Assembly: GCF_009914755.1 (NCBI RefSeq)
Contig: NC_060941.1
Direction: 5' to 3' (one strand)
Source: the human T2T-CHM13v2.0 reference genome, Homo sapiens
Length of the DNA stretch: 64,000 bases
This document shows, piece after piece, positions 572 through 13,089 of the stretch; the stretch's first letter is position 1; each line of letters opens with the position of its first letter. Position numbers and translations under genes: made by a program. Below the pieces are notes generated by a model. It was not told the origin of the DNA, searched no databases, and saw nothing but the letters and a program-made list of their open reading frames with translations.

Positions 572-1264
572 CTCCTGCTTCACACCAGGGACTGGTGACT
601 TGGACTGCTGCTCTCCAGTGAGGTCTGACTTCGGGCCGGTGGAGCCTGGGGTCACCAGCTCTTCCGGTGGGGCTGGGGAGCGCTGCTTCTTTGGGGCTTC
701 AGGCTTGGCTGGGGATCCTGCTTTCTCAGGGGAGTCTGCCCAGTCTGGGGAGCCTGGCTCCTGGCTGGAGGGCTTCTCCCCCTTCCCAGAAGACTGCTTG
801 CCGCGGGCCTTGTGCTCCTTGCCCCTGCCCCGAGACATCAGGCTCCGCAGGCCCAGGGAGAGCTCATCCTTGGCTGCCTCCTTCTTCACTGCAGGCTTAG
901 GCGGAGCAGGGGGAGGTGGGGGAGGGGGTGGCGGCTTGGGACTAGAAGCTGCCTTTTCTCCCCTCTTGCTTCGAGTCGGGTGCTCGGGGGACTTGACTCC
1001 TCTGCCTGGGGTCTCCTTGGCATTCCCAAGCTCCTCGCTGGGCAGCACCTTACTCACCACCTTCCTCACTGCATTTGCCACCCGCTTCCGGGACAGGCCC
1101 TGGGCCTCTTCGCTTAGGCCTTCTGCTGTGGCAGCTCCCGGGCCGTTCATGGCGAGTGTGGGTGCAGGGCTCCTGGCTCTCTGGGAAGTCTCTGGGGGTA
1201 TCGGGCTGGTGGGAGGCTGAGGACTCCTAGATGGGCCACTGCCTTCCTTTGAGCTGCCCTCTAG
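572..1264 (-). CDS. MYO18A: MYO18A alternative N-terminal exon (gamma-type), 693 nt / 231 codons, Pro/Ser/Lys/Glu-rich with a polyproline tract
   Basis: Acceptor tgtatgactgtag|CTA at 1264 and donor GAG|gtacaa at 572; phase 0 at both ends. Open frame LEGSSKEGSGPSRSP...MNGPG...KPPPPPPPPPAPPKP...GVKQE includes most of ORF 527..1150. Fits the polyproline-containing N-terminal extension described for sarcomeric Myo18A-gamma. Confidence 0.85.
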
Positions 1265-3229: not shown

Positions 3230-4082
3230 CCCTTTCAAATCACAGGCTGGCTTTCCAGGATTGTTTGCAGATCAGGTGGAAGCCACAGTGCCTGGCTAAT
3301 CAAACTGACCAAGGAAGTGCAGGGAGCCAGGACAGGCACCATCTGGGGTAATGAAGTAAGAATATGTGTTGTGATCCAGCTCTGCCCCAGAGCCCTGGGC
3401 ACTCCTGCCCCCTGTGCTACCAGCTGCCCTCTCCTAACTACACATCTTTGGACTTGGCTATTCAGAAACCTAAGGCTATTCTTGCCTTAGGAGAGTCCAG
3501 GTTTATTCAGGGTCTCTATCCCAATGCGCTGGGGCTGGAGGCAGTGAGTAGCTGGAGCCTGCCTCCAGGTCACCTGCACCAAGCAGCTGACAGGGTCTTG
3601 GAAGAGACAGCAGCGACTACAGTGAAGTCCCTCCATGCCTTTGCCTTGTGCCACCCAGAGCAGGCTGAAGAATCCCAACAGCTGAGCTCTCATTCGACGC
3701 TCCCTGACCTAAGAGTTTGCCCACCCAAGCCTCTCCAGGCCCAAAGGGTTCAGGAAACCAGAACCAAAGGGAGGCAACTTAAGGGGATTGGGGAGGAGGT
3801 TAGGGGAGGTCCCCAAAGCACCTTGGCCATCTCCTTCACACACCTGAAGCTGGCATCACATACACCGTACTTTCTTCCCCTTTACTAGAATTCTCTTCAG
3901 CTGAGCCACACAGGAAGGGGCCCCCTGCAATCCCCACCTACTCCATGGAGCTGTCTCACAGGCTAGTCCAGGGCTAGTGGGTGCAGGGGCAAACACACAC
4001 ACGCACACACACATGCACGCATGCACACACACATGCCCGCACACACACACGCATGCCTCGGAGAACTCAAGGATGCACTTAC

Positions 4083-4142
4083 AGCCCCTTCCTCCTTGCC
4101 AGGAGAGCCAGGCTTTGGCAGAGTTTTGTCCTCCTCTTTAAC
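4083..4142 (-). CDS. MYO18A: MYO18A 60-nt alternative exon VKEEDKTLPKPGSPGKEEGA
   Basis: Acceptor cttcttcatctgctccctcag|GTT and donor GCT|gtaagt; phase 0-0. VKEEDK resembles IREEDK, which follows WEQK in MYO18B. GCATG cluster immediately downstream. Confidence 0.85.
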
Positions 4143-6497
4143 CTGAGGGAGCAGATGAAGAAGTCACTGGCAGGTCAAGGCTGGGAGACCCAGCACTAAA
4201 AGCACAGGGAGAGAACATTCAAGGGGCCTCCCTCACCCTGAGGTGGAGCTCCTGAGTCTTTAGGAATACCGGGGCTAGGGGACCTGGGCAAGAGCTATCC
4301 TATCCTAGAATCAGAACTGTTCAGTGATGACTTCAAGAATGAAGAGTCTGTGGGGGAAAAAGCCAAGTACCCTTGCCCTCAGCAACCAGCCACTTTGCCC
4401 ACTTTGGGGGCTGTCTAAAGAGGTCCACCCACAGTGCCATCGTGGCTTTGGTTACGTGGCAGATGGGAAGATCCAGCTAATTTAACTCATCCAAACTACA
4501 AGAGTCATCCCTAGCTCAGGCAAGAAGTGGTTTGAACAAAAAGCCCCAGATCTAGTGACTGAGGAGGTAAAAGTAACCCAGTGTGGGTACCTGTGGGCCA
4601 GCAGCTTTTAGAGTAGAGTGAAGGTTGGCCCCTACTGGGCTGGCTCTGGCTTACTTCTTGATCCTGCACAACTCCCCCAGCTCAGCTGAGATCTTGCTGG
4701 AGGCAGGGAGTGGGGCAGAGGCGGAGATTCAGGAGGCCAGATATTTTCTCAACCTCAGACCCACAAAACTGCCAACCACGCAGCCGAGGGAGGGAACCCT
4801 GAAGTTAGGGGCGGGGTATGGAGGAAGGAAAGATGCCTAAGCTCTGGACACTGGGGCCAGGGGTTTGTGCTGGAGCCCAGGAGCTGGCTGGCCTGAGTCA
4901 GAGGGGAGGAGTGGAGTCGTGGAAACAGCAGATACCATCACACATCTGGAAAAAGGGCAGATGATGTGGAAGCTCTGAAGGTTCTTTCAGTTCAGAAACT
5001 GGCTCACAACAGATTCAGAGAGGCCAGGCCTCAAGTTTTAAAAAGTCTTCTCCTTTCCCCTCACCAGTATCTCTCCCTCCAAAAGCTCAGGCAGTCCTAT
5101 GGATTTAATTTCTCCTCTTTCCCGCGTCACCTAGGACTACAGGAAAAAGACAGCCCTGTTACCAACCCTACCTCCTCCTCAGCGTGCCTCTCCTTCCCAG
5201 CACAATGTGGGTAGGAGCATGGCAAGAAGTCCTTGATTCCTAAGGGAAAAAATCTTTAGAAACATCCAGAATCATTTACATGATCCACTTGGGGGGACTC
5301 TCCAATTTTAACCAGGGTCTGTGGCTAATTTTGAGCTCAAATTAGCAGTGCCAGGGGCACTGGCTGGCGTGATGGCTGCTGCAGTTTTAAAGCTGCATCT
5401 TGTCCACAGAGCTATCTGCAACGGGCTCAATCTTCATAGTTAGCTCACAATGCCAAGGACGAGGGGAAATGGCAAATATTCACCAGAGTGGAGCCTACTT
5501 CTTTAAGAATTGGAATCGGAGCAGAGAAAGGGAAGGGAGGGACTGGTGGACAGAGGGAGGAAGAGTGGCAGGGTCTAGGTCTGTGCCTGCTGCCCCCCAC
5601 CAAGCCATCACTCTCCCCCTTGCTGCCCCAGGGATCACACCATGCAGTAGTTCTGGGGCACACAGGTTAGTGGGAGGACAAGTGTTCGCAAACCACACAG
5701 ACACACTCATTACTGCACGCAGTGCTGTTAACTTGGGTGCCGGGGTGGCCCAGATTCCAAGTCCACTCTGTGTTCTTCACCAGCTCCAAATCTGTCCTCC
5801 CTCCAGTGGCTCAAGTTTGGGACCCCAAATGTCTGGCCCAAGGTGTGGCATTGGGGAAAACACTGGGTGCCCCCCAAGTGTCTGAAACACTGGGCCCAGC
5901 TCTGAGCTCAGCTCTGGATTTAGCATCAGGCTGACTCACTGCTCCCTCCCCCATCAGAAGGGCTCTGGCTGTTGTAGGTCACTGCCCAGCTGGGGACTAT
6001 GCACACGCATAAAGGCACACACACAGGCAGTCCCAAGTCTGTGGCCTGAATCACCCTCTGGACCCAGGTGGCCAACTGGCCTGACTCCCCACCCTTGGCC
6101 CCTTGTCCTCCTAACCCACTGCAGCCCCCAGGATCAGGGAGACCCAGTTCCAGCGGTCCCTCCACAGCAGCCCACGTTCCAGGGGTGAGTCAAGGCAGCA
6201 GGGTGGTGGGAAGGGTGTGGAGGGGTTAACCCAGAGGGACACCAGCAGGACAAAAGGCAGCTCACCTTACCAGAGGTGGGGCTTAGGGGAGAAGCATGAC
6301 TCAGTGCAGGAGCCCATCCAGCCAGAATAGGGAGTTCACCAGCCCCCGTCATTCTCCCTGCCACCCCCAATTATACACACATGCCCCAATCCATCTCTAG
6401 CTTCCAAAGCTCCCTCTCCCACAAGCCAGTCTCCTGCCTGCAGATACAACATGCCAAGCACACAGGAAAAACATAAAGATTTTAAAATCCAACTTTC

Positions 6498-6536
6498 CTT
6501 TTGCTCCCAGAAGGCGAACCTTGATGAAAAGGCCAT
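6498..6536 (-). CDS. MYO18A: MYO18B-like start exon MAFSSRFAFWEQK (gamma-type N-terminus); donor is non-canonical GA
   Basis: Strong Kozak gccATGG at 6536. Peptide resembles the MYO18B N-terminus MAISSRLALWEQK (10/13 identical). Upstream pyrimidine tract with CAG acceptors giving exon starts at 6558 and 6551. After codon 13 the sequence reads AAG|gaaagt. Confidence 0.65.
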
Positions 6537-6792
6537 GGCGCTGAAGGTAACCTGTGCCCTGGGTCAGAGAAGAAATGGGGGGCAGGGTCTCTCAGTGTCT
6601 CTGAGTCTTCCCAAAGGCCAGAACCTGCCAGGATAAACACTGTGGGCAACAAGGGGAAAGGAGGGATGGAGTGGAGGAGGAAGGATTACAAAACTCAAGA
6701 GGGCATTGGAGTAAGGAATAAAATATTAAAGGAAAATGAAGGAAAGTAGGCACAGAACATAGCACTCCCTACCCTTGGAAGCTGTGTGCATT

Positions 6793-8967: not shown

Positions 8968-11900
8968 TATGTAATGTATCCCATAAGTACATAAACCTAC
9001 CATGTACCCACAAAAATTAAAAAAAAAAAAGATCAAGTTACTGTTATCCAAGACAGAATGGGTAAGGAACTCAGGCCCCAAAGGTGGTGGCAGCATATGT
9101 GTTGGGAACATATGGCTCTCTGGAGCAAGGGTGTTTAGATCTAAGGCCTCTCTTCCTTGACTTGTTCTCTCTCTAGAGATTTCAGCCATTTCCAGCAACA
9201 TTACTGAATATGGAGCACCTACAATGAGATGGGCCCTATACAAGATATTGAACATTTATTTTCTAATGTAAATCTTACAACAATCTGAGGATTGGTGATA
9301 TGGGAATTATTATTATTCCCATTTTATCGAGGAGGGAAAAGATTCAGAAAGAGATTAAGTCACAAAGTTAGTTAAGTGGGGGAACCCAGACTTGAACCCA
9401 CACTGGTCTGCCTCCAAAGCCTGTGCTGCTTCCTCAGTGCCCACCTTTTCTGGTATGTTAGGCAGGCATCAGCTTTGGTAGCCAAATCTGGTTGATAAAC
9501 TTCATCGGCGTGAAGGTTCAGAAGATCTGGTCAAGCCAAAGCATGGATTGATAGTGTGTTTTACTAGTGTGCAACTCTCCAAATCGAGTTTTTGGATGTG
9601 CAAAAAGGGAGACCCCACCATGATTCTGCCACTCTGCAGGTCTACCCACCTCCTCCCTCTGTGGCACTTCTGAGGGACAGCAAGAGAGACCAACACTCAC
9701 TGAACACTTACTATGAGCCAGGCACAGGGGAAGGCACTTCATACAGGTCTCCTCATTGAATCCTCATAACAACACACTTTCTAGATAAGGAAATAAAGAA
9801 GGTGAATTGCCGAGAGCGCTGCAACTATTAAGTGGCAGAGCTGGGAGCCACAACCAGAATGTATCTTGGGGAGCTGTTTGTGCGTCTTTGTCATCCCTGG
9901 ACTGTGATTCACCTCTGAGCAGAACTTACCCATCTTACTCATCATACTGTAGGCGCTTAATAAATGTTAGCTGCACGAGAGTGCTGGGACAGGGGTTCTT
10001 TGCACAAACCTCTTATTCCCATCTAATCTCTTCCCCAAATATAAACTACAGAGAACAACACTTGCCCATTCTGATTCCCAGGGACATGGTACAAACAAGG
10101 GAGGTATAATCTCTAAGCCTGCTCACAATAAATACATAGTGAACTCAATGCCTGGGTTTGCAGGGAGGGCAAGGACACTGAAATTGCTTAGTAGCTCTTC
10201 GTGAACAATAGCCACAAAATGCATCATCCTCTGGCCTAGCCATTCCATCTTCAGGAATGTATGTCCAGTGAGCTGACTTAAAGAAAGAAAAAGAAAAAAA
10301 ACGCAAAGATTTTTATAGATGCACTCTATATAACAGCTCCAAATTGGAAAGAGCCCAAATGCCTAGAATTAAGAAATGGTTAGGTACAACCCGTTGTTGT
10401 ATTGCCATTTAAACTGACAAATGTGTGGACAATGTAACCATATGGAAAGCTCCATATAAAATGACATCAATCAAAAAAACTGGAACCCAAATAGTATACA
10501 AACAGTGATCATAATAATCTTGTAAACTGTGTGAATTAGACACAACATGAACACCTGGTATTTATTTTGGTATGTATTTGTTACTTACTGCTTATTTTTA
10601 TTGTGAAGATGGCTAAATAGTCAAAAAAAAAGCAAAGGAGATAATAGCTAGAAGCATTTGTTCTCAAAGAGGAGAAATCCAAGAAATGTACTGAGGGACT
10701 GTCAAGCCTCAGCCCCAGGAGGCTTCTGACACTCTGGGAGCAGCTGGGGTTTACCCTCCACCATGCCAGCAGAGCCTACCCGCCCTTAACCTGCACTCTC
10801 TGGGCCCCTCACAGGAGGGAATGGGGGCACAAATGCTCCTGGGAGAATAATGCCACGCCTCAGGCAGCCCCTCAGGCCTGGAATGCCTGGCCTGGACAAA
10901 TGCTTTGAGGCCCAAGCATCCACACCAGACATCTGCACACTGCAAGCCCCCGAGAGCAGCAGGTAACTCTCAAGAGAGTGCCCAAAGGAAGCTGAGACGT
11001 AGCTGGTGGCCGAGGTCACTTTCCCGCCTCGCCGCTTCTGACAGCACTCACACACCGGAGGCTTCTCCTTCTGAGGACCAAGAGGCAGGGCATTCTCCTC
11101 TCCTCCCTCTTTCCCATTCAGAGGCACAGAGGGCAGCTCCCAGGAGACTTCTTCCTCCCAGTCCCAACCTAGCACCAACTTATCTAGGGATTGAGGGCGA
11201 GGAAGGGTGGCAGGAACAAAGGAGAAGGGAAGAAATACTAGCATAATAGTAAAAAACGGTTAATCATTATTGAGCATTTGGTATGTGTCAGGTGCTGTGC
11301 TGAATCCCTCACATGAATCATCTCATTTGATCCTCACAACATCCCTCTGAAATAGATACTAGTGTGACTGTGTGACTGCTACTTTACAAATGAGCAAAAG
11401 GAGGCTCAGAAGGTCAGGTGACTCGCCCAAAGCCTCACAGCAGCAAGTGGCAGATCTGGGACTCACACTCAGGTCTCCTGCGAGAGCCCTCCACTGCTCA
11501 CTTTAAGGGATGGAGGCACGCCCTGCCCTCCATTTCCCCTGGTTCACCTGCACTGTTGTCCTTCTACATCAGCTGCCAGAAGAGCAGCTTGGGAGGAAAG
11601 CAGGGGTTCCCAATGATGACCCGCCCCTCCACCCACCAACCTGAATATGCTTTACGTGGAACTGCTTGAGAGGAAGGGAAGCTCTCTAAGGAATGAACTG
11701 AAGGCCATGCTGCCAGACAGCGGGGGAGGGGGAGATGAGCTTGGCAGGGACAACCTGGCCCTTGCAGTCCAGCCTCCAGCCAGAGCCCTCCCCAGCCCCA
11801 GGGCGGAACAGAAAGCAGCCGGGCACCCGCCTCACTGCAGGCCAGCCCAGAGGAAGCAGGTGCACTGGAATGGCTTCCTGCCGCAACTGCAGTTGCAGAA

Positions 11901-13035: not shown

Positions 13036-13041
13036 CCGCAT
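13036..13041 (-). CDS. MYO18A: MYO18A beta-isoform first coding codons (Met-Arg) at the end of an internal first exon (~13090-13036)
   Basis: gccATG CGG|gtgagtg, a consensus phase-0 donor. The PDZ-less beta isoform is known to start with a 2-residue leader before AKTEEQ. Confidence 0.8.
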
Positions 13042-13089
13042 GGCCTGGCCTGGAGCAGCCCAGAGCAAGGAGACTCCGCTCTGATGCTG

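What the first reader, a model, noticed from the sequence alone, without database searches (positions are those of the whole stretch)
6492..6536. Non-canonical GA 5' splice site at the MYO18B-equivalent exon boundary
Seen: after ...GAG CAA AAG the intron starts gaaagt, a one-base deviation at +2 from the otherwise perfect AAG|gtaagt. Similarity to MYO18B stops exactly here and resumes in the 4142 exon. The nearby GT (GAAA|gttgga) is out of phase. Inference: either a rare functional GA-AG intron limiting the gamma start, or a lineage-specific GT>GA mutation (or variant allele) that disabled the ancestral start exon.
Basis: partly seen in the sequence, partly recalled or inferred. Interest (0 to 1): 0.8.

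Follow-up and report, generated by a model that had tools for sequence, protein, structure and literature searches.

The report
Ancient GA-AG intron in MYO18A
The odd GA at the start of this intron is not a mutation but an old, conserved non-standard splice signal that the muscle-type start exon of MYO18A shares, letter for letter, with its sister gene MYO18B.

Summary
On the minus strand, ATG 6536-6534 opens 13 codons (MAFSSRFAFWEQK) ending at 6498. The intron then starts gaaagt, with the A at 6496.

- Human MYO18B has the identical AAG|gaaagt at the homologous codon-13 boundary.
- That 2099-nt MYO18B intron is listed as a read-supported, GENCODE-annotated GA-AG intron in the supplement of Parada et al. 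2014.
- 68 of 92 MYO18A models from mammals and birds, chimpanzee included, join WEQK directly to VKE/DEDK. This is the 6498>4142 junction.
- No canonical GT-AG pair can give that junction.

Best reading: a U2-type GA-AG intron of 2355 nt (6497-4143), inherited from before the MYO18A/MYO18B duplication, that begins the sarcomeric gamma isoform.

Not shown here: human junction reads. None of the three gamma exons (6498-6536, 4083-4142, 572-1264) is in the RefSeq table supplied by the hub.

Verdict: a new member of a known rare kind. It resembles the FGFR1-3 GA-AG introns but has no GT 6 nt upstream. Moderate interest.

The parts
6498..6536 (-). Coding part of the MYO18A gamma start exon: ATG (6536-6534) plus 12 codons, MAFSSRFAFWEQK
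   Evidence: tblastn of chimpanzee isoform X5 aa 1-13 gives 100% identity. The peptide is identical in 63 of the 69 models that begin with this exon.
6492..6497 (-). Non-canonical 5' splice site hexamer gaaagt (G 6497, A 6496)
   Evidence: The same hexamer follows codon 13 of MYO18B. U1 duplex energy is -5.9 kcal/mol, comparable to the canonical donors of the next two exons.
4143..6497 (-). Inferred GA-AG intron, 2355 nt. Its 3' end has TTGAC at -33 (branch-point-like), a pyrimidine tract and ctccctcag.
   Evidence: The boundaries are fixed by the WEQK|VKEEDK junction in orthologous models. The intron is inferred, not seen in human RNA.
4083..4142 (-). Second gamma exon, 20 codons VKEEDKTLPKPGSPGKEEGA, with a canonical donor gtaagt
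   Evidence: Chimpanzee X5 aa 14-33 are 100% identical.
572..1264 (-). Third gamma exon, 231 codons. It encodes the Pro/Ser/Lys-rich N-terminal extension with a polyproline run. Acceptor tgactgtag, donor gtacaa.
   Evidence: Chimpanzee X5 aa 34-264 match at 228 of 231. It has homologues in mammals, turtles and an alligator.
6559..6580 (-). Candidate 3' splice site before the start exon (ccccatttcttctctgacccag|G, 22 nt before the ATG). Whether the exon is internal or a first exon is open.
   Evidence: 17 of 20 bases upstream are pyrimidines. The homologous MYO18B exon has an upstream acceptor. This part is inference only.
13036..13085 (-). Annotated alternative first exon ending ATGCGG|gtgagt ('MR'). 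In elephant and camel models it is joined to the VKEEDK exon.
   Evidence: P0099 and P0102, and the hub's gene table.

Best explanation
Position 6497-6496 is the 5' end of a U2-type GA-AG intron of 2355 nt (6497-4143). The intron joins the 13-codon start exon of the striated-muscle MYO18A gamma isoform to the VKEEDK exon at 4142.

The GA donor is ancestral. It was already present in the single class-18 myosin gene before the vertebrate MYO18A/MYO18B duplication, and both copies have kept it.

Inferred mechanism: U1 snRNA pairs with every 5'ss position except +2 (AAG|GAAAGU). The consensus +3 to +6 bases then serve the later U6 contact, so the spliceosome accepts A at +2. No competing GT of similar strength lies nearby. 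The 3' end is an ordinary branch point, pyrimidine tract and AG.

Shown here: the sequence, the paralogue identity, the junction in orthologous protein models, and GA in other genomes. Inferred: that human muscle uses the site, and the U1/U6 mechanism.
For: 1. Paralogue. The whole-genome pattern search hits only this site and chr22 MYO18B, and the control hits none. MYO18B reads ...GAGCAGAAG|gaaagtgac. Its next exon, IREEDKSPPP..., starts 2099 nt downstream after aaaacag.

2. Published use of the MYO18B intron. The Parada et al. 2014 supplement (PMC4176328) lists MYO18B chr22:26157098-26159197, 2099 nt, GAAG, U2_GTAG-like. It has 69 + 846 reads, 6 cDNAs and 6 tissues including heart and skeletal muscle. 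It is in 4 GENCODE v17 transcripts and in the sheet of U2/U12-like junctions that passed a 1:20 coverage ratio.

3. Selective conservation. The paralogues differ at 8 of the 39 coding bases, synonymous positions included (AGG/CGC, CAA/CAG). All 6 intron bases are identical, and similarity ends after them.

4. Orthologous junction. Of 92 MYO18A models, 68 join WEQK directly to VK(E/D)E. These include Pan troglodytes X5, Cercocebus, Callithrix, Microcebus, mouse XP_017170119 and 16 bird models. Chimpanzee X5 maps to 6536-6498, 4142-4083 and 1264-572.

5. GA in other genomes.
- The cat model P0096 reads WEQK-ESW, which matches gaa agt tgg.
- The read-through ORFs P0140 (KESW) and P0141 (KESR) put GAR after the K codon.
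- P0142, in another frame (SKRKVGF), requires +2 to +4 = AAR and +5/+6 = GT.

6. No GT-AG pair gives the junction. Shifting the boundaries gives only AA-GG, GG-CA or AG-TC (my reading).

7. The review PMC11112018 states that the first 19 residues of cloned mouse Myo18A-gamma resemble Myo18B. Those 19 residues are 13 from the start exon plus 6 across this junction.

8. The U1 duplex energy of the GA site is -5.9 kcal/mol (-6.7 for MYO18B). The canonical donors of the next two gamma exons score -6.5 and -5.7. Every GT within 130 nt scores -3.6 or weaker.
Against: - No human RNA evidence for the 6498>4142 junction was available.
- The junction is absent from the Parada 2014 tables, which include heart and skeletal muscle. 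'MYO18A' occurs 0 times, and no junction has coordinates beginning 2744-2747, which was my estimate of the hg19 range.
- The hub's RefSeq table for this assembly lists none of the three gamma exons.
- The primary gamma paper (Horsthemke 2019) and the FGFR GA paper (Brackenridge 2003) could not be read.
- GA in other species is inferred from translated read-through models, not from their DNA. Three of the four sources are unnamed.
- Bird and gecko MYO18B models insert 'GS' after WEQK. This implies GG rather than GA at +1/+2 there, so the A itself is not invariant across all vertebrate class-18 genes.
- Some models start instead at 'MR' (2 models) or at the internal MNG methionine (6 of 19), so other starts may coexist.
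Confidence: 0.85

Rival explanations
1. GA is ancestral and is spliced in other species, but in humans the 13-codon exon is used little or not at all. Human gamma-type transcripts would then start elsewhere, for example at the 'MR' exon 13036-13085 or the internal methionine MNGPG in exon 572-1264.
For: - None of the gamma exons is in the hub's RefSeq table for human, while chimpanzee has a model.
- There is no MYO18A junction in the Parada 2014 tables despite heart and muscle samples.
- 'MR-VKEEDK' models exist in elephant and camel.
- 6 of 19 models start at MNG.
Against: - The human exon, its ATG, its donor context and the acceptor are all intact. They are identical in translation to the chimpanzee model.
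- Models that start at MNG are what gene predictors produce when they cannot cross a non-canonical donor.
- Absence from a 2014 short-read catalogue that demanded two data sources is weak evidence.
- From my recall of its abstract, Horsthemke 2019 saw the novel transcript in human heart. I could not read the paper.
Confidence: 0.1
2. A human-lineage GT>GA mutation, a variant allele of the CHM13 haplotype or a sequencing error has disabled an ancestral canonical start exon.
For: GT>GA at +2 is a classic disabling splice mutation (established knowledge). CHM13 is a single haplotype.
Against: - The same GA is in human MYO18B.
- GA is inferred in cat and in three other non-identical genomes for MYO18A.
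- An identical 66-aa read-through ORF exists as an independent database entry, P0138.
- The MYO18B GA-AG intron is read-supported and annotated.
Confidence: 0.02
3. The spliceosome cuts at the GT four bases downstream (GAAA|gt, 6493). ATG 6536 would then open a 15-codon upstream ORF (…KES-stop) that regulates translation of a downstream start.
For: A GT is present at +5/+6 in both paralogues. The phase-1 result is a stop in the next exon.
Against: - That GT has a poor context: 4 of 9 consensus matches and a U1 duplex of -1.6.
- For MYO18B the reads and cDNAs support the GA junction.
- 68 of 92 orthologous MYO18A models use the in-frame junction.
- Near-invariance of the 13 residues from birds to humans argues that they are translated as part of the protein.
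Confidence: 0.03

Closest known systems
MYO18B GA-AG intron (after its first coding exon; hg19 chr22:26157098-26159197)
   Same: - Homologous position, after codon 13 in phase 0.
- Identical donor AAG|gaaagt.
- Similar intron length (2099 against 2355 nt).
- The next exon starts with the homologous (I/V)(R/K)EEDK.
- No GT 6 nt upstream.

   Different: The MYO18B intron is read-supported and annotated in GENCODE. The MYO18A one is not in that catalogue and is not in the human RefSeq table given by the hub. The rest of the two introns share no significant similarity.
GA-AG introns of FGFR1, FGFR2 and FGFR3 (Twigg 1998; Brackenridge 2003; seen here only as cited in PMC4176328 and PMC7072748)
   Same: Both are U2-type introns with GA at the 5' end, conserved across paralogues of one gene family. 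FGFR1 and FGFR2 carry the same GAAG / U2_GTAG-like label in the Parada table.
   Different: According to PMC4176328 and PMC7072748, the FGFR GA site depends on a canonical GT 6 nt upstream and is an alternative site. Here there is no GT 6 nt upstream in either paralogue. The GA site is also the only route to the conserved protein. I did not read the FGFR sequences or the primary papers.
ITPR1 GA-AG intron
   Same: It is a GA-AG intron classed as U2-like. It is documented as a source of annotation and alignment errors (PMC4176328; TOGA2 preprint). The mis-modelled MYO18A and MYO18B proteins seen here are a parallel case.
   Different: The gene is unrelated, with no paralogue pair. Its sequence was not examined here.

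Membership tests
U2-type GA-AG intron | The intron, as delimited by the mature junction, begins GA and ends AG | tested here: met
   The junction WEQK|VKEEDK from 68 of 92 orthologous models and the chimpanzee mapping fixes the boundaries at 6497 (ga) and 4143 (ag). The alternative boundary shifts give AA-GG, GG-CA or AG-TC (my reading).
U2-type GA-AG intron | The remaining 5'ss positions fit the U2 consensus, and there is no U12 motif (TATCCTT) | tested here: met
   AAG|GAAAGT matches 8 of 9 positions of (C/A)AG|GTAAGT. There is no TATCC. The identical MYO18B site is classed U2_GTAG-like by Parada 2014.
U2-type GA-AG intron | A branch point and pyrimidine tract precede the AG | tested here: met
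   TTGAC lies at -33, followed by cttcttcatctgctccctcag. This is judged from sequence only.
U2-type GA-AG intron | The junction is observed in transcripts of this species | not testable with these tools
   No human RNA data were available. The junction is absent from the Parada 2014 tables. It is present in those tables for the MYO18B paralogue.
U2-type GA-AG intron | The GA is conserved in other species, so it is not a private mutation | tested here: met
   GA is inferred from read-through translations in cat (P0096) and in P0140, P0141 and P0142. It is also in human MYO18B. This is indirect evidence: no orthologous DNA was available.
MYO18A gamma isoform start | The extreme N-terminus (first 19 residues) resembles MYO18B | tested here: met
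   MAFSSRFAFWEQK+VKEEDK against MAISSRLALWEQK+IREEDK. The review PMC11112018 states this for mouse.
MYO18A gamma isoform start | There is no PDZ/KE region, and the N-terminal extension has a polyproline stretch | tested here: met
   Exon 572-1264 encodes ...SPKPPPPPPPPPAPPKP.... The gamma-type models carry no PDZ Pfam domains. The reviews describe a PPII helix.
MYO18A gamma isoform start | Striated-muscle expression and the long serine-rich C-terminus | not testable with these tools
   No expression data were available, and the C-terminal exons lie outside the window.

The most novel reading that the evidence does not exclude
The non-U base at +2 is not merely tolerated. It would be kept by selection in both class-18 myosin genes as a regulatory gate. 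On this reading it is a slow 5' splice site, prone to stalling after the first catalytic step, that needs a muscle-enriched factor or slow transcription. Production of the conserved 19-residue sarcomeric N-terminus would then be restricted to striated muscle, and this gate would have persisted since before the MYO18A/MYO18B duplication.
Probability: 0.15. Interest if true: 0.75.

Novelty: new member of a known kind. Interest (0 to 1): 0.5.

Why it matters
1. Annotation. It may explain why the human gamma start is missing from the supplied annotation. It may also explain why many models in other species begin at an internal methionine or carry spurious 'ES', 'ESW' or 'GS' residues. The essential cardiac isoform of MYO18A begins behind a splice site that standard aligners and predictors reject. 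Variant interpretation in heart and muscle disease would miss these exons and would misjudge changes at this donor.

2. Splicing biology. It adds a second paralogue family, after FGFR1-3, in which a GA 5' splice site has been kept since an ancient duplication. Here the site has no helper GT 6 nt upstream, which makes the pair a natural system for asking how a 'dead-end' GA site is spliced constitutively.

Tried and rejected
- Primary papers. Horsthemke 2019 (DOI and PMC6509511) and Brackenridge 2003 (PMC152907) are not held. What I say of them rests on citing papers or on recall.
- Literature searches. 'GA-AG' with 'MYO18A' and 'GA-AG' with 'MYO18B' each returned 0 papers. The peptide strings FAFWEQK, LALWEQK, MAFSSRFAFWEQK and MAISSRLALWEQK returned 0 papers. 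These searches cover main texts of the held library only, so the claim 'not described' is limited to that.
- Parada 2014 supplement. File 1 and the PDF of legends could not be read. A phrase search to count GAAG/U2 rows failed on the tab-separated text, so I give no total for human GA-AG introns.
- Shared intronic elements. A comparison of the MYO18A and MYO18B introns found nothing significant beyond the exon and the donor hexamer. The next best match had E = 0.002 in GC-rich sequence.
- Muscle promoter motifs. A scan of the 660 nt upstream for MEF2, CArG, TATA, GATA and MCAT motifs found only three E-boxes. It says nothing either way about a promoter.
- Orthologous DNA. The collections on hand hold no vertebrate genomes other than this one, so GA in other species had to be inferred from translated read-through models.
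- U12-type intron and A-to-I RNA editing were considered and rejected. There is no U12 motif, and editing of A gives G, not U.

Full report
**1. The observation**

On the minus strand the window reads ...cagcgccATGGCCTTTTCATCAAGGTTCGCCTTCTGGGAGCAAAAG|gaaagttggatt.
- The ATG is at 6536-6534.
- The 13 codons MAFSSRFAFWEQK end at 6498.
- The next bases are G (6497) and A (6496).
- Apart from +2, the site fits (C/A)AG|GTAAGT at every position.

The GT at 6493-6492 would leave a 43-nt exon in phase 1. Joined to the next exon it would give K-E-S-stop (my reading).

The next exon is at 4142-4083. It has acceptor ctccctcag, encodes VKEEDKTLPKPGSPGKEEGA, and has donor gtaagt.

The 9-mer AAGGAAAGT is not rare by itself: 3 matches in the window against 1.09 expected, with 11 of 100 shuffles reaching 3. 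What needs explaining is its position, not the motif.

**2. The paralogue has the same GA**

A degenerate pattern of the peptide was searched in the whole T2T genome. It hit exactly two places, this site and chr22:26222281. The reversed control hit none.

The chr22 site is the first coding exon of MYO18B...cagcATGGCCATCTCATCACGCCTCGCCCTGTGGGAGCAGAAG|gaaagtgacact. The next MYO18B exon (aaaacag|ATTCGGGAAGAGGACAAG..., IREEDKSPPPSSPPP...) starts 2099 nt further on.

The two genes therefore share four things:
- the intron position, after codon 13 in phase 0;
- the donor hexamer gaaagt;
- the motif that follows, (V/I)(K/R)EEDK;
- a similar intron length, 2355 against 2099 nt.

In the DNA alignment the 39 coding bases differ at 8 positions, synonymous ones included (AGG/CGC, CAA/CAG). 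All six intron bases are identical, and similarity ends right after them. Old paralogues that have diverged at silent sites but keep gaaagt intact point to selection on the donor as it stands.

**3. The MYO18B intron is a published, read-supported GA-AG intron**

The supplementary table of Parada et al. 2014 (PMC4176328; I read passages of the main text and parts of supplement file 2) lists MYO18B chr22:26157098+26159197.
- The entry gives length 2099 nt, dinucleotides GAAG and type U2_GTAG-like.
- It has 69 reads in the tissue mixture, 6 cDNAs, and 846 reads in 6 tissues including heart and skeletal muscle.
- It is annotated in four GENCODE v17 transcripts.
- It also stands in the sheet of U2/U12-like junctions that passed a 1:20 coverage ratio.

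The length equals the one I measured on T2T.

Rows with the same label were seen for FGFR1, FGFR2 and ITPR1.

MYO18A does not occur in that file. No junction has coordinates beginning 2744-2747, which was my estimate of the hg19 range. File 1 and the legend PDF could not be read.

**4. Orthologous proteins carry the junction**

The third gamma exon (572-1264, 231 codons, Pro/Ser/Lys-rich with a polyproline run) found MYO18A models in mammals, turtles and an alligator. Of those 19 hits:
- 6 begin MAFSS(R/K)FAFWEQKVKEEDK;
- 6 begin at the internal MNG methionine;
- 1 turtle model begins MVKDEDK;
- the rest are alpha-type or fragments.

A second search, with residues 1-45 of the elephant model, gave 91 proteins. 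I examined 92 models: the 86 new proteins plus six gamma-type models, five of which one search returned again.
- 68 join WEQK directly to VK(E/D)E. They include Pan troglodytes X5, Cercocebus atys, Callithrix, Microcebus, mouse XP_017170119 (MAFSTRFAFWEQK) and 16 bird models.
- 1, the cat model P0096, reads WEQK-ESW-EDK.
- 20 enter the VKEEDK exon from the PDZ exon (...RREPAD|VKEEDK).
- 2 start MR-VKEEDK.
- 1 has another start.

tblastn of chimpanzee X5 maps aa 1-13 to 6536-6498 (100%), aa 14-33 to 4142-4083 (100%) and aa 34-264 to 1264-572 (228 of 231). The human exons are therefore intact, and the 6498>4142 junction is the one annotated in a great ape.

No pair of canonical GT-AG boundaries can yield this junction. 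Sliding the boundaries gives only AA-GG, GG-CA or AG-TC.

**5. GA in other genomes**

No vertebrate DNA other than this genome was on hand, so I used translations that run through the donor.
- The cat model's ESW equals gaa agt tgg, the human intron start.
- The human read-through ORF (6336-6563) was searched against 1.84 billion representatives and gave 5 hits.
- P0138 is identical to the human ORF.
- P0140 (WEQK-ESW..., 60% identical) and P0141 (WEQK-ESR...) place a GAR codon right after the K.
- P0142, in another frame (...SGSKRKVGF...), requires +2 to +4 = AAR and +5/+6 = GT. A GTAAGT there would give a stop.
- P0139 matches only further inside the intron and is not informative.

For MYO18B, the hedgehog model reads WEQK-ES-....

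Of 32 MYO18B hits, 8 contain the first coding exon. Four have the direct junction (Rhinopithecus, Leptonychotes, Lacerta, Pelodiscus). Four carry inserts: hedgehog ES..., gecko GS..., and two birds GS.

The GS inserts imply GG, not GA, after the K codon in sauropsid MYO18B. This counts against a strict requirement for A at +2 and remains unexplained.

**6. What it is and how it probably works**

The best reading is a U2-type GA-AG intron inherited from the pre-duplication class-18 myosin gene.
- The 5'ss keeps every U1-pairing position but +2.
- Its U1 duplex energy is -5.9 kcal/mol (-6.7 in MYO18B). This is in the range of the canonical donors of the next two gamma exons (-6.5 and -5.7).
- All GTs within 130 nt are -3.6 or weaker.
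- The 3' end has TTGAC at -33, a pyrimidine tract and cag.
- There is no U12 motif.

That U1/U6 contacts at +3 to +6 compensate for +2A is inference from established splicing knowledge.

The FGFR precedent, as reported in PMC4176328 and PMC7072748, needs a GT 6 nt upstream. Neither MYO18 gene has one. In that respect these sites resemble the constitutive non-canonical class that Parada et al. mention.

**7. Link to the gamma isoform**

The review PMC11112018 (abstract, section 6 and passages) says two things. Mouse Myo18A-gamma, cloned from heart, has an alternative N-terminal extension with a polyproline helix. Its first 19 residues are highly similar to Myo18B.

Nineteen is 13 + 6, exactly the span across this junction.

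PMC7900500 (passages) lists a gamma isoform for mouse only. PMC11285346 (passages) sees the isoform in mouse heart-tube cells.

The hub's RefSeq table for this assembly lists none of the exons 6498-6536, 4083-4142 or 572-1264. A non-canonical donor is a plausible reason, and Parada et al. document such annotation failures for ITPR1.

**8. What is not shown**

- Use of the site in human tissue.
- Whether exon gamma-1 is a first exon or is spliced from upstream. A good acceptor sits 22 nt before the ATG.
- Whether the GA limits or regulates expression.
- The primary gamma paper was not readable, so I cannot say whether its authors noted the GA. My searches 'GA-AG'+'MYO18A' and 'GA-AG'+'MYO18B' found no paper in the held library.

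**9. Verdict**

- The mutation, variant or error reading is rejected.
- A functional ancestral GA-AG intron is strongly supported.
- It is a new member of a known rare kind, with practical weight for annotating the human cardiac isoform.
- It has some mechanistic interest as a paralogue-conserved GA site without a helper GT.

Noticed in passing
window 572-1264, 4083-4142, 6498-6536 (minus strand): All three gamma-specific 5' exons of MYO18A are intact in human. Their translation is identical or near-identical to chimpanzee isoform X5 (228 of 231 in the large exon). None of them appears in the RefSeq table supplied for this assembly.
   Followed up: partly
window 13036-13085 (minus strand): The annotated alternative exon ends ATGCGG|gtgagt. 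Elephant X5 and camel X13 models start 'MR' and join it to the VKEEDK exon. The gamma N-terminal extension can therefore apparently be entered from at least three upstream exons: gamma-1, 'MR' and the PDZ exon.
   Followed up: partly
proteins P0100-P0120, P0137: Twenty predicted alpha-type models (dog, fox, elephant, hamster, squirrel, badger, fishing cat) splice the PDZ exon into the VKEEDK exon (...RREPAD|VKEEDK at residue 333). This gives proteins of up to 2740 aa that carry both the alpha and the gamma N-terminal extensions.
   Followed up: no
proteins P0039, P0044, P0047 (MYO18B of gecko, duck, turkey): These models insert 'GS' after WEQK. That implies GGN AGY after the last exon codon, so GG rather than GA at +1/+2 in sauropsid MYO18B. 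An in-frame donor 6 nt downstream is another possibility. Lizard and turtle models have the direct junction.
   Followed up: no
window 3990-4060 (minus strand): A (TG)n-rich stretch, with interrupted gtgtgtgtgc/gcatgc repeats, starts about 25 nt downstream of the donor of exon 4083-4142. UG-rich repeats next to a muscle-specific exon could bind splicing regulators. This was not tested.
   Followed up: no
window 6336-6536 (minus strand): If the GA intron is retained, the ATG opens a 66-residue ORF (MAFSSRFAFWEQKESWILK...). Database entries translating exactly this read-through exist (P0138, P0140, P0141). They are most likely naive ORF calls on genomic DNA, not real proteins.
   Followed up: partly
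window 9712-9780 (minus strand): The annotated 69-nt exon of other transcripts has ordinary splice sites on both sides (ccttatctag|AAAGTG ... CTCATA|gtaagt), so it is an internal cassette exon.
   Followed up: no
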